The position numbers and the translations under genes were made by a program. The notes beneath the pieces were generated by a model. It worked only from the letters and a program-made list of their open reading frames with translations, did no database searches and was not told the DNA's origin. A DNA stretch of 64,000 nucleotides from an uncultured Acidimicrobiia bacterium (lineage in GTDB: Bacteria; Actinomycetota; Acidimicrobiia; Spongiisociales; ZC4RG35), in contig CAVYYV010000005.1 in the NCBI GenBank assembly GCA_963772815.1, positions 318,626 through 382,625 on the forward strand, read 5' to 3'. This document shows, piece by piece, positions 14,807 to 47,451 of the stretch. Position 1 is the stretch's first letter. Every line of letters starts with the position of its first letter.

Positions 14807-15706
14807 TCAAGGCAGGGTGATGGGCGTTTCGGGCACCGCAACTCGGACCGTGGCGACTGTTCCCGAAACAGACACCGTCGTTCCCTGGTCGGAGGTGATG
14901 CTGGGGCAGTCGACCGTGACCGACCACACTCCCACCTCCTCCCGCTCGGCCACGAGTTCAGTTGTCACCGAGCAATTGGATTCCTCACCCGACCAGAACT
15001 CGTTTCCGGCGGCGAATTGGTCGAGATGGAACGGCTGCCCCGGGTCTGCGCGAAGGGTCATGGTGGCGAAGTCGAAGTCGCCGAACTTGCCGATGAAGTA
15101 GATCACGGAGCCCTGATCGGCGTCGGTCCATCTCGCCGTCTGAATTGGCGCCTCGAGACTCATGTCGCCTGCCACGACCAGGGTGCCACCCAGCTCGACG
15201 GGGGGTCGCCGGACAAAGTCCACCGGAAGGCGAATGGCTCCCTCCATGCTGATCGTGTGCTTCTGGTGGATGTCTGTCACGACGGGACAGGACACGTCGA
15301 CCACCACGGTCGCCTTCTCGACACCCTTGGCCGGCTGCATGTCACAATCGGAAGGATCCGGGAAGAAGTCCAGGCCCGGTAGGTGCACCTGGTCGACGTA
15401 GGCCCCATGGGCGGGGTCCACGGCCACATCGACCTCGCCGAGACTCAGAGAGTCGGTGCTCTTGAACGCCTGGTAAGCCCCTTCGCCCTCGAAGACGAGG
15501 GTCGTGGCGACATCGCCCGTGATGTCGATTTCTCCAATCGTCATCTCGGGTCCCTCGACCTCGGTCGTTGGCTCACCCTCAACTCCGATCCCGGTTCCGG
15601 CCGTTCCGAGCAGCCACCGACCCAGCCCGAACGCCGCCAGGAGTGTGAGCAATGCAACTCCTCCTAGAACCCCCACCGCGCTGGCGCTGCGCCGGTTACT
15701 TCCCAC
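14807..15706 (-). CDS. hypothetical membrane-anchored/secreted protein
   Basis: 299 aa. N-terminal hydrophobic segment (VLGGVALLTLLAAFGLG). Acidic, Thr/Val-rich beta-type composition. No domain recognised. Confidence 0.55.
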   Translation of the reverse strand: MGSNRRSASAVGVLGGVALLTLLAAFGLGRWLLGTAGTGIGVEGEPTTEVEGPEMTIGEIDITGDVATTLVFEGEGAYQAFKSTDSLSLGEVDVAVDPAHGAYVDQVHLPGLDFFPDPSDCDMQPAKGVEKATVVVDVSCPVVTDIHQKHTISMEGAIRLPVDFVRRPPVELGGTLVVAGDMSLEAPIQTARWTDADQGSVIYFIGKFGDFDFATMTLRADPGQPFHLDQFAAGNEFWSGEESNCSVTTELVAEREEVGVWSVTVDCPSITSDQGTTVSVSGTVATVRVAVPETPITLP

Positions 15707-15775
15707 CGGGCTTCTGCTCTTGGGTATAGGCGATGAAGTTCATGTACCTGAAAGGGTGAAAGTTTCGCAGTTCGC

Positions 15776-15991
15776 TCACTGGCAGCACTGCCTCATGGCA
15801 GGTCGTCGAGGTATTGGACGACGTTCGTATGTCCGTTGTCCAGAGCGGCTCCCACCCGGGGGCGTCTTGTACTCGCGGGGAGCGACCTCATCGATGTAGT
15901 CGTCGTACTCGTTGGAGCGTCTCCACAGCCAGTAAGAGCCCACGACCACCACGACCAGGAACCCGATAACGATCCACCAGGCAGCATCCAT
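15776..15991 (-). CDS. small hypothetical membrane protein
   Basis: 71 aa starting with one TM helix (MDAAWWIVIGFLVVVVVGSYWLWRR). GC3 is high in the first half, but rare codons in the second half make the real extent uncertain. Confidence 0.3.
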   Translation of the reverse strand: MDAAWWIVIGFLVVVVVGSYWLWRRSNEYDDYIDEVAPREYKTPPGGSRSGQRTYERRPIPRRPAMRQCCQ

Positions 15992-16189
15992 GATTCACAG
16001 TCTTACAGACAGTGAGGAACAACGCTCGAACTCGTGCGGAATGTGCAGGCAGCGACCTGCACCGGGGAGTGGTCCCCATTTCTGTCTGATCCAACAGAGT
16101 TGATCATGTCGGTCGGCCGTGACCCGAGAACCGCACGGAACGTCGGTGCGTAATGGCAGGCAAGTCGATCACGAGAGAAGGGAAGATCG

Positions 16190-16702
16190 ATGAAGAGACG
16201 CACGATGTTGACGGTGATGCTGGCGGCGATCCTCATCGCCGGGTCGATTTCGGCGGTTGGCGCCGACGAGTCGAAGCTGCTGGACACCAATGCCATGGTC
16301 GGCGTACCCCGTCCCTACACGGGTGCGACGAACGCTATCCGCGGTGTGCCCGGCGGCGGTCTCCCTTGGGTGATCGATTTCGGCAAGGCGAAGGTCAGCC
16401 CCGAGGGCAGCGTGGACGTGCAGGTCAAGGGATTGGTGTTCGATCCGGATGATGAGGCTGTGATCGGACTGGGCATTGGCGGCACCAACACCGTTCCCAA
16501 CTTCAAAGCGATCGTCAGCTGTCTCAGCAAGGACGCAGATGGGAATCCCGTCACAGTCAATGTCTCGACCGGCCTCTTCCCGGCCGACACCAACGGTAAC
16601 GCTCACATCGATGACGAGGTTTCCCTCCCGGAGCCCTGCATTGCCCCGGTCGTCTTCGTGACCAGCCCCGGTGGCGCCTGGTTCGCTTCGACCGGTTCAT
16701 AA
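16190..16702 (+). CDS. hypothetical secreted protein
   Basis: 170 aa with a signal peptide (MKRRTMLTVMLAAILIAGSISAVGA). No domain recognised. Confidence 0.55.
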   Translation: MKRRTMLTVMLAAILIAGSISAVGADESKLLDTNAMVGVPRPYTGATNAIRGVPGGGLPWVIDFGKAKVSPEGSVDVQVKGLVFDPDDEAVIGLGIGGTNTVPNFKAIVSCLSKDADGNPVTVNVSTGLFPADTNGNAHIDDEVSLPEPCIAPVVFVTSPGGAWFASTGS

Positions 16703-16731
16703 CCCGCCGGCGAGGTGACGGGACGACCCGG

Positions 16732-17316
16732 TCAGCGCACGGCCCGGGCTGCTCCCACCACGTCGAGAAGCAGGTCAGGGTCTACGGGCGGTGATGGGAC
16801 GTTGGCCACGGCAAGCCTTCCGTGGGCGATTCCGTCGGTCATCTCCACCTCGGCTCCCAGCTCGTCGAGAATGGACCGCATGGGTCCGTTGTCGGAGAGG
16901 ACCTCGAACTCGAGGGTCCCAAACCCGACATTGGCCGCCACCACTGCCAGCGCTAGCACCAGGAACCGGCCCAAACCACGGCCCTGGTAGTCATCCAGAA
17001 CCGTGACTGCCACTTCCGCCGCGGTCGGGTCGGTGGAGGTCTTGGCGTATCGACCCACGGCCGCCGCGTCTCCCTCGACCAGCAGGCCCCAGGCGAACCG
17101 ATCGAACATGTCGAGATCGGTGAGCTGGGTCAACTCGTGCTCGGAGAGCGAGGTGACGGGGGAGAAGAAGCGGTAATAACGCGACCGCTCCGACAGGCGG
17201 GTGAAGGCCTCGCTGAGCAGGGCGCGATGATTGGGACCGAGCGGGATCAACTCAACGGGCGCACCGTTGAGGTTGAAGGAAGCTGTCTTGGGGGGGCGCC
17301 AGATCTCAACCGACAT
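16732..17316 (-). CDS. GNAT family N-acetyltransferase
   Basis: ORF 16732..17583 is a read-through. Conserved part from M90 (MSVEIWRPP...) has an acetyl-CoA binding region (VTVLDDYQGRGLGRFLVLALAVVAANVGF) typical of GNAT. Confidence 0.7.
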   Translation of the reverse strand: MSVEIWRPPKTASFNLNGAPVELIPLGPNHRALLSEAFTRLSERSRYYRFFSPVTSLSEHELTQLTDLDMFDRFAWGLLVEGDAAAVGRYAKTSTDPTAAEVAVTVLDDYQGRGLGRFLVLALAVVAANVGFGTLEFEVLSDNGPMRSILDELGAEVEMTDGIAHGRLAVANVPSPPVDPDLLLDVVGAARAVR

Positions 17317-17567
17317 TTCGTCTCTCTGCTTGCAACTGCAAGCATACCGCACGCGGGTTTCAAAGCCAGGCTCAGTAGAGACGCCGGTTACGAAAGAGAT
17401 CCCCTCCCTGCCCCTGTCTCCTCCCCCGAAGGGGGAGGTGGCGAACGCAGTGAGCCGGAGGGGATCCGGAACACCCGGAGACACGCAGGAAGCTCCCCCG
17501 TCGGGGGGAAGAGAACGAGGGGTTCCGACTTCGCGGGACTGGGTGGGCTCGCTTAGCCTGCTGGCGC

Positions 17568-18756
17568 GTGTCACGGCGTCCACCTCTCGTCTTCATCTTC
17601 ACGATCACGCTGACCGGGATCCTCAACAACACCCTGGTCACTCCGGCCATACCCGACATCCTGGCCGAGTTCGGCGTCCCAGATCAGCGAGCCGGAGTGC
17701 TGGTTGCGGCAGGATCGGTGGCGGGAATCGTCGTCGCGCCGTTGATCGGAATCTTGGCGGACCGGTATGGCCGCCGCCTGGTGCTGACGACTTGCCTGGG
17801 CCTGTTCGGCGCCTTCGGGGGCGTGGCCGCCATCTCACCCTCCTTCACGATCCTGCTGTGGTCGACGCGTCCTCCAGGGGGTGGGATCGGCGGGTTTGAT
17901 CAACCTGGCGGTGGTCCTGATCGGCGATCACTGGGACGGAGCCATGCGCACCCGGCTGGTGGGGCGCAACTCAGCCATCCTCACAGTGGGCCTGGCCTCG
18001 CTGCCCCTTCTGTCGGGAACCGTGACCGAGGCTGCAGGCTGGAGGGTGACCTTCGCCATCTACACGATCGCCCTTCTGATGGCGGTCTTAACCCTGGTGG
18101 TGCTGGACGAGTCCCGACCTGAGAACCCTCCCCCCATTCGCCGGCAGCTGAGCGGAGCCGGCGAGGTCGTGCGCCAGCCTGAGGTGGTGGTCACCTTCGT
18201 GATCGGCTTCGTGGTGTTCATCATGATCTTCGGGTTGCTGCTGACCGTGTTCCCGCTCCATCTCGAGCAACGATTCGGGATGTCGGCCGCTACCCGCGGC
18301 CTGATGATCTCAGTGCCGGCCGTCACCTCGTCGCTGGCGGCGTTCAACCTGGGACGGATCCGGGCACATCTCTCGCCCCGCACCATCGTCATCGCCGGGT
18401 CGACGATCTTCATAGCCGCGTTCCTGATCCTGGGTGCCTCGACGGTGGTGCTGTTCACGGTCCTGGGAGCTCTCCTGTATGGATGCTCGGAGGGGATGTT
18501 CATCCCCACCATCCAGGATCTGGCCATGGCCACCTCGCCCAACGAGCACCGGGGAGCGGTCGTAGCGGTGTGGGTGGGTGCCGCCCGACTCGGACAGACC
18601 GTAGGTCCGCTTCTGGCCGGACTGGCCCTGGCAGCCTGGGCCCCGGGGACCACACTGATGATCGGGTCCGCCCTGGCGGGCCTGATACTCCTCATCGGGC
18701 TCTTCGGCCCTCTCTCTCGGTCCACAACCCCGGCCGCACCGAGGCAGCGGCACTAG
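17568..18756 (+). pseudogene. MFS transporter disrupted by a frameshift (ORFs 17568..18122 and 17881..18756)
   Basis: First ORF ends ...ADRYGRRLVLTTCLGLFGAFGGVAAISPSFTILLWSTRPPGG and then goes out of frame. The second frame reads RRVLQGVGSAGLINLAVVLIGDHWDG..., the expected continuation after MFS motif A. A 1-bp change near ~17856-17860 restores ...SFTILLGRRVLQGVGSAGL.... Confidence 0.7.
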
Positions 18757-18887
18757 CCTCTCGTTCAGCATGGCCCGCATTTCCACATCGACTCGAGCCT
18801 TCGGCTCGGGGAGGACGCGAGAATCACGACGCCTCCGGGTTCTACGGGCGATTCGCCCCTCCTCGCATCTCCGACGACGCCGAGGTG

Positions 18888-19706
18888 CGCTCCCCGGCCA
18901 CCACCGACCGGATCTTCTGTGGCGAGGCGGCCACGATGACTCAGACGCAGGTGGCGGACAAGTCGGTGGCCCTGGTGGTCACATCGCCGCCTTATTTCAC
19001 CGGCAAGGAGTACGAGCAGGATCTCGGCTCGGGCCACGTGCCGGCCAGCTACGTGGAGTACCTCGAGTCTCTGTACGAGACCCTGGCCGTGTGCGTCGAC
19101 AAGCTCGAACCGGGAGGCCGCATGGCGATCAACGTGGCCAATCTGGGCCGCAAGCCGTACCGGTCCCTGTCCGCCGACTTGATCGCGATCCTCCAGGATG
19201 ATCTGGGCCTACTCATGCGGGGTGAGATCGTGTGGCAAAAGGCCAAAGGAGCGGGCGGCTCGTGCGCCTGGGGATCGTTTCGCTCACCCGCCAACCCGGT
19301 CCTGCGGGACCTGACCGAGCGGGTTCTGATCGCCTCGAAGGGCCGATTCGATCGAGCTCTGAGCCGTCGGCGGCGCCAGGAACTGGGCCTGCCCCATGTG
19401 GCCACGATCGAGACCGAAGACTTCCTTCAGGCCACCCTCGACGTGTGGGAGATACCGGCTGAATCGGCCACCCGGATCGGCCACCCTGCTCCCTTCCCGG
19501 TCGACCTGCCCCGGCGCCTCATCGAGCTCTATACCTACCAAGGAGACCTGGTCCTCGACCCCTACATGGGATCGGGTTCGACTGCCGTCGCCGTCGTTGC
19601 CACGGAACGCCACTACGTCGGCTTCGACACCAACCCCGACTACGTGGCACTGGCGGAGGAGCGCCTCTCCCATTTTGGCGCGACATCCAGGCCATCGACG
19701 CCCTGA
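18888..19706 (+). CDS. DNA methyltransferase (beta-class amino-MTase, SPPY motif; N4-cytosine or N6-adenine)
   Basis: ORF 18483..19706. Conserved part ...TDRIFCGEAATMTQTQVADKSVALVVTSPPY (motif IV SPPY) and C-terminal DPYMGSGSTAVAA (motif I FxGxG-like), i.e. the circular-permuted beta-class order. Start assigned to the GTG at ~18888 upstream of RIFCGEAA; ATG at 18936 is an alternative. Confidence 0.7.
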   Translation, partial: RSPATTDRIFCGEAATMTQTQVADKSVALVVTSPPYFTGKEYEQDLGSGHVPASYVEYLESLYETLAVCVDKLEPGGRMAINVANLGRKPYRSLSADLIAILQDDLGLLMRGEIVWQKAKGAGGSCAWGSFRSPANPVLRDLTERVLIASKGRFDRALSRRRRQELGLPHVATIETEDFLQATLDVWEIPAESATRIGHPAPFPVDLPRRLIELYTYQGDLVLDPYMGSGSTAVAVVATERHYVGFDTNPDYVALAEERLSHFGATSRPSTP

Positions 19707-20186
19707 ATGTCGCGCGAAAAGCTCTTGCGGGTCCTGGTGGTGTGTCTGGGCAACATCTGTCGGTCGCCGGCCGGTGAGGCTGCGCTGATCGAGGCCGCCG
19801 CCGACGCGGGAATGGACCTGGAGGTGAGCTCGGCCGGGACCGGTGCATGGCACACGGGCGACGGCAGGCATCCCCAGATCATCGCCGCCGGGCGCCGGGT
19901 CGGCCTGGACATAGGGGGAAGGGCCCGTCAGATCGCCACGCCCGAGGAGCTGGCCCCCTTCGACCTGATCTTGGTGATGGACCACTCCAACCTGGTTGCG
20001 GTCGAATCCATGGCCCCCGAGCTGGCCGCTCGGGTGCACTATTTCCGCGCCTTCGACGGCACCGATCAAGATGAGGTCGAGGACCCCTACGGCCGCGCCG
20101 ACCACGCCTACGACGAGACCGTACGGGTGGTGCGCGCGGCCGCCAGGGGGATCGTCGCCGCCATCACCGACGGCCGACTTCCGTGA
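19707..20186 (+). CDS. low-molecular-weight protein-tyrosine phosphatase
   Basis: 159 aa. P-loop VCLGNICRSPAGEA (CX5R-S) and the DP motif (EDPYG) of LMW-PTPs. ATG immediately follows the methyltransferase stop. Confidence 0.88.
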   Translation: MSREKLLRVLVVCLGNICRSPAGEAALIEAAADAGMDLEVSSAGTGAWHTGDGRHPQIIAAGRRVGLDIGGRARQIATPEELAPFDLILVMDHSNLVAVESMAPELAARVHYFRAFDGTDQDEVEDPYGRADHAYDETVRVVRAAARGIVAAITDGRLP

Positions 20187-20908
20187 GCTGGGCCCGGATG
20201 AGCCGCTCCACTGTGGGCGGCCGCCCGGTGGTGGTCAAGGAGACCGACTACCAGGCCCACCTCGAAGCGGATGGCTTGCGGGCTCTCCGGGAGGCCGGTG
20301 CTCCCGTTCCCGACGTGATAGAGGTCTCAGCCACTCGCTTGGTCATCGCCGAGGTGGGGGGACCGCCCGACTGGGAGGGATTGGGCCGGGCTCTTGCCCG
20401 ATGCCACGGCGCCACGGCCGATGCCTATGGATATTCGGCCGACAACGTCATCGGCCCTCTCCCCCAGGTCAACACCTGGACCACGGATTGGGCAGATTTC
20501 TACGGCCACCATCGTCTCGGACCTCACCTGGAAGCCCTTCCATCAGACCTTCGCCACCGACTCGGCGCGGCGATCGAGGATGGGAGGCTGGCCGGCCTGC
20601 TCGAGCACGGGCAACCACCGTCCCTGATCCACGGGGACCTGTGGTCGGGCAACATCGTCTCCGGACGATGGCTGATCGACCCGGCGGTCTGTTTCGCCGA
20701 CCGGGAGATGGATCGGGCATTCGCCGACCTGTTCGGCGGCATCCCCCCTTCTATGTGGGACGCCTACGAACAGGTCTGGCCTCTCGACCCGGGCTGGGAG
20801 CTACGCAAGCCGGCCCTCCAGCTGTATCACCTCCTGATCCACGTGAGCCTGTTCGGCGGTGGATACGGGTCGATGGTCGCGCAGCGACTGGATCGGCTCG
20901 GTTGGTGA
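20183..20908 (+). CDS. fructosamine/ketosamine-3-kinase family protein
   Basis: 241 aa with IHGDLWSGN catalytic loop and DxxxxF(A)D region of the aminoglycoside-phosphotransferase-like fructosamine kinase family. Overlaps the PTP stop by 4 bp. Confidence 0.75.
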   Translation: MSWARMSRSTVGGRPVVVKETDYQAHLEADGLRALREAGAPVPDVIEVSATRLVIAEVGGPPDWEGLGRALARCHGATADAYGYSADNVIGPLPQVNTWTTDWADFYGHHRLGPHLEALPSDLRHRLGAAIEDGRLAGLLEHGQPPSLIHGDLWSGNIVSGRWLIDPAVCFADREMDRAFADLFGGIPPSMWDAYEQVWPLDPGWELRKPALQLYHLLIHVSLFGGGYGSMVAQRLDRLGW

Positions 20909-20914
20909 GTCTGC

Positions 20915-21334
20915 CTACTCCCGGTCGGCCAGGGGGATGGCAGTGAAGGGAAGTGCCGGTCCCATGGTGACCGCCACGGGAAGGGCCACACGGACCAGCA
21001 CCGTGATCAGTACCGCCACGATCCCCGCCGCGATCCAGCGGCGGCCCAGACTGTTGGGGTCGTCGCGCCTGACCGTCACGATCGCCCCCACGGCAAAGGC
21101 GCTGATCAGCCCGCTCAGGGGATCCAGGAGGATGGCCAGAGGCCATCCGATCAGTATGGCCAGCCCCATCGCCTTGACCACTGCCATCGGCCAGTCTGGG
21201 CGGCGACTACCGAAAGCGGCCACAGCGAAAGCCAGTGGTACCAGGGCGAGGCCCAGAGCCACCCCTCCAGCCCCCTGGCCCTCAACAGAGGAGGCTAAGG
21301 GGATGAGGGTGGCCCACACCGACACCACCACCAC
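20915..21334 (-). CDS. hypothetical integral membrane protein
   Basis: 139 aa, four predicted hydrophobic helices. No domain recognised. Confidence 0.45.
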   Translation of the reverse strand: MVVVSVWATLIPLASSVEGQGAGGVALGLALVPLAFAVAAFGSRRPDWPMAVVKAMGLAILIGWPLAILLDPLSGLISAFAVGAIVTVRRDDPNSLGRRWIAAGIVAVLITVLVRVALPVAVTMGPALPFTAIPLADRE

Positions 21335-21406
21335 TCCAGTGGCACCGGTGACGGTCAGCCAGATGCGTCTCCTCGCCGATTTGCTGGCAGGTCCAGCCAG
21401 GGGCGA

Positions 21407-22354
21407 TCAGCCCTTGACGGCGCCGGCCGTCAGACCACGGACGAAGAACCGCTGCAAGGAGAAGAAGACCACCATTGGCAGGATCATCGTGATGAAAGCG
21501 CCGGCCGTGAGCAGATACCAGGACTGACCGCGCGAACCGTTCAGGGCGTTGAGGAACACCGTCAGCACCTCGACCTGCGGTGCTCCCCCCAGGAACACGT
21601 ACGCCACCAGAAAGTCGTTGAACACCCAGAGGAACTGGAAAATGGCGAAGGCGGCCAGGGCCGGCACCGAGAGAGGAACGATGAGACGGGTGAAGATCGT
21701 GAAGTGATCCGCCCCGTCTATCTCCGCAGACTCGATGATCGACGACGGCAGCGATCCGATGTAGTTGCGTAACAGGTAGATCGCCAGCGGTAACCCGAAT
21801 CCGGTGTGGGCCAGCCACACCCCCAGGAACGTGTGGTTCAATCCCAGAGCCGGGAAGATCGGTACGCCGCCGATGTTCGCTCCCAGGTTGTAGAGACGCA
21901 GGATGGGAATCAGGGCCATCTGCAGGGGCACGACCAGCAGGGCCACGACCACCACGAACAGCCATTGCCGCCCCGGGAACTCCATCCAGGAGAAGGCGTA
22001 GGAAGCGAAGGCGGCGATGGTGATGGGGATCACCGTGGCCGGGACCGCTACCACCAGGGTGTTGACGAAGGCGTTGCCGGCTCCCTCGTCGATGACGGTT
22101 CGGTAGTTTTGCAGGGTCCATTGGGTCCTGTCACCCAGGCTGCCGAACACGGTCCACCAACCCGACGTGTTGATGGCATCGGGGGTGCGGAACGAGCTGA
22201 TCAGGAGGCCGACGGTGGGAACCAGCCACAGCAGCACGACCACCAGGATGATGAAGCGGACCACCCATACACCGGCGCCCTCGCCGACGTTTCCTCCCTT
22301 GACGTCCTTGGGCGCCTGCACCTCTTTGGTGACGGGAACATCGCGGGTGGTCAT
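21407..22354 (-). CDS. carbohydrate ABC transporter permease (MalG-type)
   Basis: 315 aa, six TM segments, EAA-loop region (IESAEIDGADHFTIFTRLIVPLSVPALA). Confidence 0.85.
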   Translation of the reverse strand: MTTRDVPVTKEVQAPKDVKGGNVGEGAGVWVVRFIILVVVLLWLVPTVGLLISSFRTPDAINTSGWWTVFGSLGDRTQWTLQNYRTVIDEGAGNAFVNTLVVAVPATVIPITIAAFASYAFSWMEFPGRQWLFVVVVALLVVPLQMALIPILRLYNLGANIGGVPIFPALGLNHTFLGVWLAHTGFGLPLAIYLLRNYIGSLPSSIIESAEIDGADHFTIFTRLIVPLSVPALAAFAIFQFLWVFNDFLVAYVFLGGAPQVEVLTVFLNALNGSRGQSWYLLTAGAFITMILPMVVFFSLQRFFVRGLTAGAVKG

Positions 22355-46840: not shown

Positions 46841-47451
46841 TCATTCCACCCGCACCGGGGCCTTGGACACGTCGTAGCGCTCCTTGCCCCGCAGGACCCG
46901 GACGAGCTTGATCATCTCGGCCAGCGTCTGGAGGGAGAGGAGGGCGAAGGCCACCAGGATCACGCTCTTGATCGGATAGCACGCGGCAGCCCGCTTGGAT
47001 CGGGCGAGCCCTCCTTCACCTGCCAGGAGAAGAGGATCGGGCTGATGGAGACCCAGATGCCGATGACGCAGAAGGGAATCAGCCCGATCAGATGGCCCAC
47101 GAAATCGATCAAGGCCTTGGTCTTCTCGCTCCGATTGGCGAACCAGAAGTCCACCCGCACGTTGACCTGGTTCTTGAGAATGTAGGCGAAGGCAAACAGG
47201 AAGATCAGCGAGTAGAGGTACCACTGGCCTTCGATGAGAGCATTACTGGTGAGCTGCTGATGCACCGAGGCGCCCACCCGGCGTAGAACCACGTTGACAA
47301 AGCCCATCAAGATGGTGGGGACGACCAGCCACACCGAGACCTTGCCGAAGAACTCTGATATGGCTTCGATGCCGTTGATGAACCAACCGTGATCGAGCGG
47401 AGCTCCCGCCTTGTCTCTCCGCCGTCCGTCCTCGGGAATGTCGGTGGCCAT
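46841..47451 (-). pseudogene. dctQ: TRAP transporter small permease (DctQ), disrupted by a frameshift near its 3' end
   Basis: ORF 46960..47451 ends ...ILFSWQVKEGSPDPSGLPRAIRSRA-stop. The conserved DctQ C-terminus ...[37 protein letters not shown] is in another frame (tail of ORF 46841..47224). A 1-bp change at ~46975-46985 joins them. Confidence 0.65.

What the first reader, a model, noticed from the sequence alone, without database searches (positions are those of the whole stretch)
18888..20908. Orphan SPPY-type DNA methyltransferase translationally coupled to a LMW tyrosine phosphatase and a fructosamine kinase
A beta-class amino-methyltransferase (motif IV SPPY near the N-terminus, motif I at the C-terminus) ends 1 bp before the ATG of a low-molecular-weight PTP. 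The PTP in turn overlaps the start of a fructosamine-3-kinase-like gene.

No restriction endonuclease, specificity or Vsr-like gene is adjacent. The upstream neighbour is a disrupted MFS gene. A methyltransferase co-transcribed with a phosphatase/kinase pair is unusual. It suggests either a regulatory (epigenetic) orphan MTase or a remnant of an R-M system.
Basis: partly seen in the sequence, partly recalled or inferred. Interest (0 to 1): 0.5.

Follow-up and report, generated by a model that had tools for sequence, protein, structure and literature searches.

The report
Conserved solitary DNA methyltransferase of Acidimicrobiia
The methyltransferase is real, but it is not a stray restriction-system gene: it is a chromosomal enzyme kept in hundreds of Acidimicrobiia species, almost as conserved as the chaperone DnaK, has no restriction partner here, and sits in an operon ahead of a known protein-repair phosphatase/kinase pair.

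Summary
All three genes exist: a PF01555 beta-class amino-methyltransferase (SPPY), an LMW-PTP that starts right after its stop codon, and a fructosamine-kinase-like gene that overlaps the PTP stop.

Two corrections:
- The MTase starts at ATG 18770, not 18888.
- In this assembly one extra base near 18813-18815 breaks its frame. A 99.9%-identical sister assembly carries the intact 311-aa gene, so the break is most likely a consensus error.

The MTase is a core gene, not a mobile one:
- At least 593 species genomes, all Acidimicrobiia among the 80 listed, encode it at 64-81% identity.
- Between two genomes it is 73% identical, against 79% for DnaK and 48% for the PTP.
- Plasmid and phage relatives are at most 34% identical.
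- No REase lies nearby.

In about 43 species the order msrB-(GNAT)-MTase-PTP is kept, usually with a 4-nt stop/start overlap. FN3K follows only in the closest relatives. A sister lineage has a longer MTase followed by a conserved 344-aa protein with faint REase similarity.

The motifs SPPY and HPAPFP predict N4-cytosine methylation. The target may be CGCG. Published work reports CGCG methylation in all Acidimicrobiia genomes examined, and differences between the two assemblies cluster at CGCG (p about 1e-9).

Verdict: a new member of the conserved orphan-MTase kind, of moderate interest.

The parts
17568..18756 (+). MFS transporter gene, first gene of the co-directional block. It is split by a 1-nt insertion at about 17864.
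   Evidence: PF07690 matches both halves. The gene is intact at 395-399 aa in L007, L051, L089 and L090. The sister assembly lacks the extra G before ACGCGT.
18770..19706 (+). Beta-class amino-methyltransferase gene, 311 aa once one surplus base at 18813-18815 is removed. Frame A runs 18770-18814 and frame B runs 18816-19706.
   Evidence: PF01555 E=1e-36. PADLOC MTase_II PDLC03350 matches homologue P0002 over its full length, E=1e-80. The corrected protein is found verbatim as P0245 in sister assembly contig_24653.
18800..18854 (+). Family-specific invariant N-terminal motif FGSGRRENHDASGFYGRF, interrupted by the surplus base.
   Evidence: F11 G12 S13 G14 R16 E17 H19 D20 F24 Y25 R27 F28 are invariant in 12 sequences. 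No solved structure covers this motif: the PDB alignments start at query residue 45-53.
18984..18995 (+). Motif IV, SPPY (catalytic).
   Evidence: Translation. The same VVTSPPY occurs in the proven N4C enzyme N4CMT (8s9m) and in TTHA0409.
19482..19499 (+). HPAPFP motif.
   Evidence: Identical in N4CMT and TTHA0409. The DPPY-type methyltransferase 8urk has HPTQKP instead.
19557..19583 (+). Motif I, DPYMGSGST (AdoMet binding).
19704..19709 (+). TGA-ATG junction between the MTase and the PTP, with no spacer.
   Evidence: In relatives the junction is usually a 4-nt ATGA, GTGA or TTGA overlap, found in 26 of 34 scorable loci.
19707..20186 (+). Low-molecular-weight phosphatase (LMW-PTP family). The P-loop CLGNICRS lies at 19743-19766 and DPY at 20082-20090.
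   Evidence: PF01451 E=2e-30; motifs. An independent JGI contig, L088, is 100% identical over 19704-21502.
20183..20908 (+). Fructosamine/ketosamine-3-kinase-like gene, short form of 241 aa. HGDLWSGN lies at 20630-20653.
   Evidence: PF03881 E=5e-51, covering profile positions 58-284 of 288; motif. The same 241-aa form occurs in L002, L007 and L051.

Best explanation
18770-19706 encodes a solitary, vertically inherited beta-class DNA amino-methyltransferase that belongs to the core genome of Acidimicrobiia.

Shown:
- It has the full catalytic apparatus of the PF01555 family.
- It has no restriction partner in this lineage.
- It is kept under purifying selection close to that on DnaK.
- It lies in a fixed chromosomal position: NUDIX, msrB, GNAT on the opposite strand, then MTase and LMW-PTP.
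- In this sub-lineage it is flanked by an MFS gene upstream and an FN3K-like gene downstream.

Inferred:
- It transfers a methyl group from AdoMet to the exocyclic N4 of a flipped-out cytosine, because of its SPPY and HPAPFP motifs. It probably acts as a dimer, like other beta-class enzymes.
- It marks a short fixed sequence across the whole chromosome. The mark would serve housekeeping or epigenetic purposes, as Dam and CcrM do, rather than defence.
- The most likely target is CGCG (about 0.4-0.5).
- The four co-directional genes MFS-MTase-PTP-FN3K are co-transcribed, and the stop/start junctions allow termination-reinitiation.
- PTP plus FN3K form a separate protein-deglycation module, so the link to the MTase reflects operon packing in small genomes and not a shared pathway.
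- The frameshift in the window is most likely a consensus error, so the organism probably makes the intact 311-aa enzyme.
For: Family and chemistry:
- PF01555 scores 127 bits.
- PADLOC MTase_II matches the full length, E=1e-80.
- The best solved relative is TTHA0409, E=4e-31, described as a putative beta-class N4C MTase (PMC5173035).
- SPPY and HPAPFP are identical to the biochemically proven N4CMT (PMC10406627).

Core-gene behaviour:
All 80 listed are Acidimicrobiia-type MAGs at 64-81% identity.
- Thousands of metagenomic homologues at 72-90% identity.
- Window against the L001 genome: DnaK 79%, MTase 73%, MsrB 69%, DnaJ 59%, GrpE 53%, NUDIX 53%, PTP 48%.
- The best plasmid or phage relatives are at most 34% identical, and none reaches the first 36 residues, which hold the N-terminal motif.

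No REase:
- Gene tables of L001-L005 show none.
- tblastn of the clade-B partner found nothing in the window or in any clade-A locus.
- PADLOC was negative on the flanking hypothetical ORFs.

Synteny and coupling.

Intact gene in a sister assembly.

CGCG lead:
[quoted passage not shown] The BAAAA enzymes are m6A MTases only 32% identical to each other, so at least one of them lies outside this 64-81% family.
- 10 of 23 window-versus-sister differences lie within 3 nt of CGCG, which covers 3.6% of positions (p=2.7e-9). CGCG ranks first of 136 4-mers.
- CGCG is the most depleted GC-rich palindrome, with O/E 0.65.

PTP/FN3K pair: PMC5617981 cites Gemayel 2007 for a ptpA-linked repair system for ribose-5-phosphate Amadori adducts.
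Against: - No methylation data exist for this organism, and no enzyme of this family has been assayed.
- The closest solved relative, TTHA0409, is only a 'putative' methylase of unknown specificity.
- The CGCG assignment is circumstantial. Other MTases in the genome were not surveyed, and the clustering of differences could reflect real hypermutability or an error mode unrelated to this enzyme. The sequencing platform of the two assemblies is not known to me.
- The 4-nt MTase/PTP overlap is kept across lineages whose PTPs are only 44-59% identical. That is stronger conservation than mere packing requires, so a functional tie is not excluded.
- The sister-lineage orthologue has a possible REase neighbour.
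- As assembled, the window's gene is broken.
- The AF2 model of the MTase was unusable (pLDDT 43).
Confidence: 0.6

Rival explanations
1. It is a domesticated remnant of an ancient Type II R-M system. The ancestor paired a long MTase with a restriction enzyme, as still seen in Acidimicrobiales. The window's lineage lost the REase and the MTase C-terminal domain and kept the methylase. This is compatible with the best explanation as an account of origin.
For: - In 31 of 32 clade-B loci the orthologue carries an extra C-terminal domain of about 150 aa.
- In 22 of 32 clade-B loci it is followed by a conserved 335-346-aa protein.
- 12 of 19 of those proteins hit one and the same PADLOC model, REase_II PDLC03456, best E=2.6e-4.
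- Most 50%-identity representatives of the family are long forms, while the short form is a single cluster. This suggests the short form is derived.
- The best PADLOC model for the MTase is a Type II MTase.
Against: - The partner has no Pfam or NCBIfam hit.
- The pair is itself vertically conserved in a fixed place beside recR and is annotated only as hypothetical, which is unlike selfish R-M.
- CGCG depletion is stronger in the REase-less clade (0.71) than in clade B (0.80).
Confidence: 0.2
2. The MTase and the LMW-PTP form a functional unit. Either the phosphatase controls the methylase through tyrosine dephosphorylation, or both act in one damage-repair pathway together with MsrB, NUDIX and FN3K.
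For: - MTase-PTP adjacency occurs in about 43 species-level genomes, mostly with a 4-nt stop/start overlap. It persists where FN3K is absent.
- The neighbours are repair or house-cleaning genes: msrB, NUDIX, and the FN3K/PTP deglycation pair.
Against: - In clade B the same MTase sits next to entirely different genes and has no PTP nearby.
- The PTP evolves much faster than the MTase: 48% against 73% identity.
- Overlapping starts are common in compact high-GC genomes (my own knowledge).
- There is no precedent known to me for PTP control of a DNA MTase.
Confidence: 0.1
3. The enzyme methylates something other than DNA, such as RNA, a protein amide or a small molecule. This would explain its near-DnaK level of conservation.
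For: - Conservation is exceptional for a DNA MTase: 40% of columns are invariant and identity is 73% against 79% for DnaK.
- The (D/N/S)PPY pocket also serves glutamine methylation in HemK-type enzymes (my own knowledge).
- The nearest solved relative has never been shown to act on DNA (PMC10073500 lists its specificity as unknown).
Against: - Every significant family and PDB match is a DNA MTase.
- The match to TTHA0409 runs through the target-recognition region.
- Class-wide DNA methylation motifs are reported for Acidimicrobiia and need enzymes to write them (PMC8919816).
Confidence: 0.07
4. In this particular organism the gene is a pseudogene, and the frameshift is real.
For: The window's sequence has one surplus base that splits the ORF. 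NCBI's gene call is only the 256-aa tail starting at ATG 18936 (P0001).
Against: - Apart from that base the protein is identical to the intact P0245.
- The window has four such 1-nt insertions in 42 kb, each breaking a gene that is intact in the sister assembly. Three share the context of an extra G before AC(C)GCG, which looks systematic rather than mutational.
Confidence: 0.07

Closest known systems
CcrM (Alphaproteobacteria) and Dam (Gammaproteobacteria): conserved orphan DNA MTases
   Same: It is solitary, chromosomal, vertically inherited and conserved across a whole class. CcrM is also beta-class (PF01555). In the sister lineage the orthologue, like CcrM, carries an extra C-terminal domain.
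   Different: - It is not a CcrM family member: the NCBIfam CcrM model scores 44.5 bits against a cutoff of 830.
- It has SPPY/HPAPFP where the DPPY-type beta-class enzyme 8urk has DPPY/HPTQKP. CcrM is also a DPPY enzyme (PMC10406627).
- The predicted product is m4C rather than m6A.
- It has its own invariant N-terminal motif.
- No cell-cycle or repair role has been shown.
TTHA0409 of Thermus thermophilus HB8 (PDB 2zie/2zif/2zig)
   Same: It is the best solved relative, E=4e-31, aligned over residues 45-303. It shares TSPPY and HPAPFP and is described as a putative beta-class N4C MTase (PMC5173035).
   Different: Identity is low, and it lacks the roughly 45-residue N-terminal extension. Its specificity and activity are unknown (PMC10073500).
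N4CMT of the rotifer Adineta vaga (8s9m) and M.PvuII (1boo): proven N4-cytosine MTases
   Same: N4CMT has the same catalytic motifs, VVTSPPY and HPAPFP, and the C-terminal AdoMet-binding half aligns at E=2e-17. M.PvuII matches only over that C-terminal half (E=3e-13), and its motifs were not shown.
   Different: Only the conserved core aligns, and the target-recognition regions are unrelated. M.PvuII belongs to an R-M pair.
LMW-PTP + FN3K-homologue gene pair of bacteria (Gemayel et al. 2007, FEBS J 274:4360)
   Same: The gene order is the same, with the LMW-PTP immediately upstream of the FN3K homologue. The catalytic motifs are intact (CX5RS, DPY, HGDLWxGN).
   Different: An MTase precedes the pair here, and the kinase is a short form of 241 aa. 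Most relatives with the MTase-PTP pair have no FN3K next to it. I could not read the 2007 paper. Its content comes from my memory and from the citation in PMC5617981.

Membership tests
PF01555 / beta-class amino-methyltransferases | Profile match above the curated cutoff | tested here: met
   127.3 bits against 26.7, covering profile positions 1-221 of 221.
PF01555 / beta-class amino-methyltransferases | Circular permutation: motif IV (D/S)PP(Y/F), then the target-recognition region, then motif I FxGxG | tested here: met
   SPPY at residues 72-75 and DPYMGSGST at residues 263-271 of 311.
PF01555 / beta-class amino-methyltransferases | Sequence-specific methylation of DNA | not testable with these tools
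   Needs methylome data or an enzyme assay.
N4-cytosine-specific subgroup | Serine in motif IV (SPPY/F) | tested here: met
   TSPPYF is invariant in the family. The same motif occurs in the proven N4CMT.
N4-cytosine-specific subgroup | m4C present in genomic DNA at a defined motif | not testable with these tools
   Only indirect evidence is available. Assembly differences cluster at CGCG, and CGCG methylation is reported class-wide (PMC8919816).
Type II restriction-modification system | Cognate restriction endonuclease encoded beside the MTase | tested here: not met
   None in the window or in about 50 clade-A loci. A candidate exists only in clade B, and its identity is unproven.
Type II restriction-modification system | Patchy, horizontally mobile distribution | tested here: not met
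   At least 593 species of one class, stable synteny, and no close plasmid or phage copies.
Conserved orphan (solitary) MTases | No REase partner, conserved across a taxon, fixed genomic context | tested here: met
Conserved orphan (solitary) MTases | Demonstrated regulatory, replication or repair role | not testable with these tools
   No genetics are available for these uncultured lineages.
CcrM family (NF050803) | Score above the equivalog cutoff | tested here: not met
   44.5 bits against 830, and only the motif I region matches.
LMW-PTP (PF01451) | Profile match plus the CX5R(S/T) P-loop and the DPY general-acid loop | tested here: met
   106.5 bits. CLGNICRS at 19743-19766 and DPY at 20082-20090.
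Fructosamine/ketosamine-3-kinase (PF03881) | Profile match and the catalytic loop HGDLWxGN | tested here: met
   174 bits. HGDLWSGN at 20630-20653.
Fructosamine/ketosamine-3-kinase (PF03881) | Full-length N-lobe (profile positions 1-57) | tested here: not met
   Only profile positions 58-284 are matched, and 26 residues precede the match. The short form is conserved in relatives.

The most novel reading that the evidence does not exclude
Acidimicrobiia would have their own class-wide, near-essential m4C epigenetic system, writing CGCG. It would be the actinobacterial counterpart of CcrM or Dam and would be run by this uncharacterised MTase family with its private N-terminal motif. In one lineage the enzyme would be translationally coupled to, and perhaps controlled by, a tyrosine-type phosphatase. 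In the sister lineage it would work with a conserved REase-like reader or nuclease placed beside recR, for example for strand discrimination or repair in a phylum that lacks MutHLS.
Probability: 0.15. Interest if true: 0.7.

Novelty: new member of a known kind. Interest (0 to 1): 0.4.

Why it matters
Conserved orphan methyltransferases such as Dam and CcrM control replication, repair and the cell cycle. Nearly all well-studied examples write m6A or m5C and come from Proteobacteria.

Acidimicrobiia are abundant in soil, freshwater, oceans and wastewater. If a conserved m4C enzyme marks their genomes, three things follow:
- It would name the gene behind a methylation motif already reported across the class.
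- It would offer a testable case of housekeeping m4C.
- It would flag a practical problem: consensus errors in long-read MAGs of this class may concentrate at the methylated motif and create false pseudogenes, as in this very gene.

For the finding as written, the main value is corrective. The operon link to the phosphatase/kinase pair is conserved gene order, not evidence of a new pathway.

Tried and rejected
- AF2 model of the MTase from 20 homologues: pLDDT 43, unusable, so no fold search was run on it.
- Is the PTP derived from the clade-B C-terminal domain? No: hhalign probability 0.1%.
- Promoter and terminator scan of 16600-21500: no better than shuffles.
- Composition: there is no GC or skew anomaly around the MTase that would suggest recent acquisition.
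- Supplements of PMC8919816 are not held, so I could not see which gene those authors linked to CGCG.
- Gemayel 2007 is not held.
- Further literature searches for an Acidimicrobiia m4C/CGCG enzyme found nothing beyond PMC8919816.
- Exact-protein look-ups for window genes at 52.9-56.6 kb failed, so the comparison with the sister assembly stops at 42.3 kb. The look-up of P0001 also failed.
- CGCG is not enriched between genes: O/E is 0.49 intergenic against 0.63 genic, on small numbers.
- My first reading of the frameshifts as an 'extra A before CGCG', from alignments to 89%-identical L089, was refined by the 99.9% sister assembly to an extra G before AC(C)GCG.
Full report
**1. What is in the sequence**

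The region is about 65% G+C, with no compositional break around the locus. Four co-directional genes sit almost without spacers.

- MFS transporter, 17568-18756 (PF07690, split into two frames).
- PF01555 N6_N4 DNA methylase, in the frame that ends at 19706.
- LMW-PTP, 19707-20186 (PF01451).
- Fructosamine-kinase-like gene, 20183-20908 (PF03881).

A GNAT acetyltransferase gene diverges upstream, and a small membrane-protein gene converges downstream.

TGA 19704-19706 is followed directly by ATG 19707, and the PTP stop overlaps GTG 20183 as GTGA.

The catalytic motifs are intact:
- MTase: SPPY at 18984-18995, HPAPFP at 19482-19499, DPYMGSGST at 19557-19583.
- PTP: CLGNICRS and DPY.
- Kinase: HGDLWSGN.

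**2. Correction of the gene model**

Homologues are 304-324 aa long and begin with an invariant block, FGSG(K/R)RE(N/S)HDxxxFYxRF.

In the window the block is split between two frames.
- ATG 18770 through 18814 gives MARISTSTRAFGSGR.
- One surplus base follows.
- The frame from 18816 continues RENHDASGFYGRF.

NCBI's own gene call for this contig is only the 256-aa tail (P0001).

I removed the surplus base and looked the 311-aa product up by exact sequence. It exists verbatim as P0245, on ENA ERZ25039549 contig_24653 (468,606 bp).

That contig is 99.93-99.97% identical to window 1-42301. It carries an intact MFS (395 aa), MTase (311 aa), an ABC transporter (576 aa) and an alpha-amylase (518 aa).

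Against it, the window has four 1-nt insertions, and each one breaks one of those genes.
- 7290: extra G before ACCGCGG.
- 17864: extra G before ACGCGT.
- 18813: GA[G]GACGCG.
- 26639: GAT[C]GGGGGG.

The shared context of three of them, together with the otherwise identical protein, makes a consensus artefact the likeliest reading. Only the reads can settle it.

An independent JGI contig (L088) is 100% identical to 19704-21502, but it stops short of the frameshift site.

**3. Distribution and conservation**

The 80 best loci are 64-81% identical. Nearly all are labelled Acidimicrobiia or a subgroup of it. A few carry other bin labels, such as Acidobacteriota or Gammaproteobacteria.

The metagenomic protein search was saturated with hits at 72-90% identity.

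Between the window and the 2.3-Mb genome of L001, identities are as follows:

| Protein | Identity |
|---|---|
| DnaK | 79% |
| MTase | 73% |
| MsrB | 69% |
| HspR | 63% |
| DnaJ | 59% |
| GrpE | 53% |
| NUDIX | 53% |
| PTP | 48% |

In a 12-sequence alignment, 40% of the columns are invariant.

Nothing closer than 34% identity is found on plasmids or phages, and none of the listed matches reaches the first 36 residues, which hold the N-terminal block.

This is the signature of a vertically inherited core gene under strong constraint. It is not the signature of a mobile R-M component.

**4. Context**

tblastn of the window's proteins against 85 loci separates two groups.

*Clade A* (MTase at least 69% identical; includes the window):
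- The order NUDIX, msrB, GNAT on the opposite strand, MTase, LMW-PTP recurs in about 43 species.
- The MTase stop and the PTP start overlap by 4 nt (ATGA, GTGA or TTGA) in 26 of 34 scorable loci. By eye, several loci that my start-picker missed show the same overlap.
- The window, L002 and L051 have the no-spacer form.
- FN3K follows the PTP only in the closest relatives (L002-L007, L030, L051, L089, L090).
- The MFS gene precedes the MTase only in L007, L051, L089 and L090.

*Clade B* (64-68% identical; Acidimicrobiales, Microthrixaceae, Ca. Poriferisocius):
- None of these neighbours is present.
- The MTase ORF is 447-513 aa because of an added C-terminal domain of about 150 aa, seen in 31 of 32 loci.
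- In 22 of 32 loci a conserved 335-346-aa protein follows it.
- The pair lies beside recR or downstream of folD and MTHFR.
- Neither the extra domain nor the partner occurs anywhere in the window or in clade A.
- In a library clustered at 50% identity, most representatives of the family are long forms and the short form collapses into one cluster. The short form is therefore probably derived.

**5. Is there, or was there, a restriction enzyme?**

In the window and in clade A: no.

The clade-B partner remains uncertain.
- It has no Pfam or NCBIfam match.
- It has 2859 homologues, and those that carry a name are almost all called 'hypothetical'.
- 12 of its 19 aligned members weakly hit one single PADLOC model, REase_II PDLC03456, with a best E-value of 2.6e-4.
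- It has invariant D99/D103...(S/Q)xK111 and E315-x-K317 residues.

I therefore regard an ancient R-M origin as possible but unproven. A recent R-M remnant is excluded.

**6. What the enzyme probably does**

Every significant match is to DNA amino-MTases.

The pair SPPY plus HPAPFP is shared with the biochemically proven N4-cytosine enzyme N4CMT and with TTHA0409. The DPPY-type relative 8urk has HPTQKP instead (PMC10406627; PMC5173035). N4-cytosine methylation is thus the favoured chemistry. This is an inference.

For the target there is a lead.
- They assign BAAAA to m6A enzymes that are only 32% identical to each other, so at least one of them lies outside this 64-81% family.
- They leave an m4C motif in one Acidimicrobiales MAG without an assigned enzyme (PMC8919816).

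Independently, the 23 differences between the window and its sister assembly are concentrated at CGCG.
- 8 lie within 2 nt of CGCG, where 2.9% of positions do (p=1.6e-7).
- 10 lie within 3 nt, where 3.6% of positions do (p=2.7e-9).
- CGCG ranks first of 136 4-mers at both distances.

Such clustering is what modification-dependent base-calling errors, or hypermutable methylated sites, would produce. That is an inference, and I do not know the sequencing platform.

CGCG is also the most depleted G+C-rich palindrome: O/E is 0.65 in the window, 0.71 in clade-A loci and 0.80 in clade-B loci. It is not enriched between genes.

None of this ties CGCG to this particular gene. I put the assignment at roughly 0.4-0.5.

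**7. The phosphatase and the kinase**

An LMW-PTP placed directly before a bacterial FN3K homologue is a described arrangement. It is proposed to dephosphorylate ribulosamine 5-phosphates so that the kinase can remove the adduct. This rests on Gemayel et al. 2007, which I know from memory, and PMC5617981 cites it for a ptpA-linked repair system for ribose-5-phosphate Amadori adducts.

The kinase here is a short form (241 aa, Pfam profile positions 58-284 of 288), conserved as such in relatives.

The unusual element is the conserved MTase-PTP coupling. Four points bear on it.
- The same MTase lives in unrelated contexts in clade B.
- The PTP evolves much faster than the MTase.
- The flanking genes (msrB, NUDIX) are unrelated housekeeping functions.
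- The C-terminal domain of clade B is unrelated to the PTP.

I therefore read the coupling as inherited operon structure in small genomes. A regulatory tie remains a minority possibility of about 0.1.

**8. Comparison and verdict**

The closest functional analogues are the conserved orphan MTases CcrM and Dam. The gene is not a member of the CcrM family (44.5 bits against a cutoff of 830).

The closest solved relative is the uncharacterised TTHA0409. The closest proven chemistry is that of N4CMT and M.PvuII.

The finding is a real and correctly recognised gene trio. Its interest lies less in the 'odd operon' than in the MTase being an uncharacterised, class-wide, strongly constrained solitary enzyme with a private N-terminal motif. 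It is a plausible writer of the CGCG mark reported for Acidimicrobiia.

It is a new member of a known kind, with interest 0.4.

Noticed in passing
window 1-42301, compared with L090/L091/L092 (ENA ERZ25039549 contig_24653): Two 99.9%-identical assemblies differ at 23 positions. Ten of these lie within 3 nt of a CGCG (p=2.7e-9, first of 136 4-mers). This suggests CGCG is a modified or error-prone motif in this organism.
   Followed up: partly
window 7290, 17864, 18813, 26639: Four 1-nt insertions relative to the sister assembly each split a gene: an ABC transporter, the MFS, the MTase and an alpha-amylase. Three are an extra G just 5' of AC(C)GCG. The fourth is an extra C next to a G6 run.
   Followed up: yes
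window 46847-46975 and 47002-47385 (- strand): A DctQ-like TRAP-transporter gene also appears to be split. The gap of 26 nt implies a missing base rather than an extra one, and a CGCG lies in the interval. The sister loci do not cover this region.
   Followed up: partly
L054-L087 (clade B loci), e.g. L064:5983-7431 and L059:7439-8473: Acidimicrobiales orthologues of the MTase carry an extra C-terminal domain of about 150 aa with no Pfam match. A conserved 335-346-aa hypothetical protein follows them (2859 homologues), with weak PADLOC REase_II similarity and no recognisable fold match. The pair often lies beside recR.
   Followed up: partly
window 20183-20908: The FN3K-like kinase lacks most of the canonical N-lobe (241 aa, Pfam profile positions 58-284 of 288). 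This short form is conserved in relatives.
   Followed up: partly
window 14807-16702: About 2 kb holding three hypothetical ORFs with signal or transmembrane-like N-termini lies between msrB and the GNAT gene. It is present in the sister assembly, but msrB and GNAT are adjacent in L051 and L001. There are no Pfam or PADLOC hits.
   Followed up: partly
P0244 (Logan contig, 399 aa), in the same 90% cluster as the window's PTP: Its length equals PTP plus FN3K, so in some assemblies the two genes are called as one fused ORF across the GTGA overlap.
   Followed up: no
whole window; clade A and B loci: CGCG is the most under-represented G+C-rich 4-mer palindrome. O/E is 0.65, 0.71 and 0.80 for the window, clade A and clade B, and only CTAG and TTAA are lower. 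It is not enriched in intergenic DNA.
   Followed up: partly
window 16732-17583 (- strand): The divergent GNAT gene gives a sub-threshold match to the mycobacterial protein acetyltransferase Pat model (NF058543, 97 bits against a cutoff of 460). Its longest ORF overlaps the MFS start by 16 nt.
   Followed up: no
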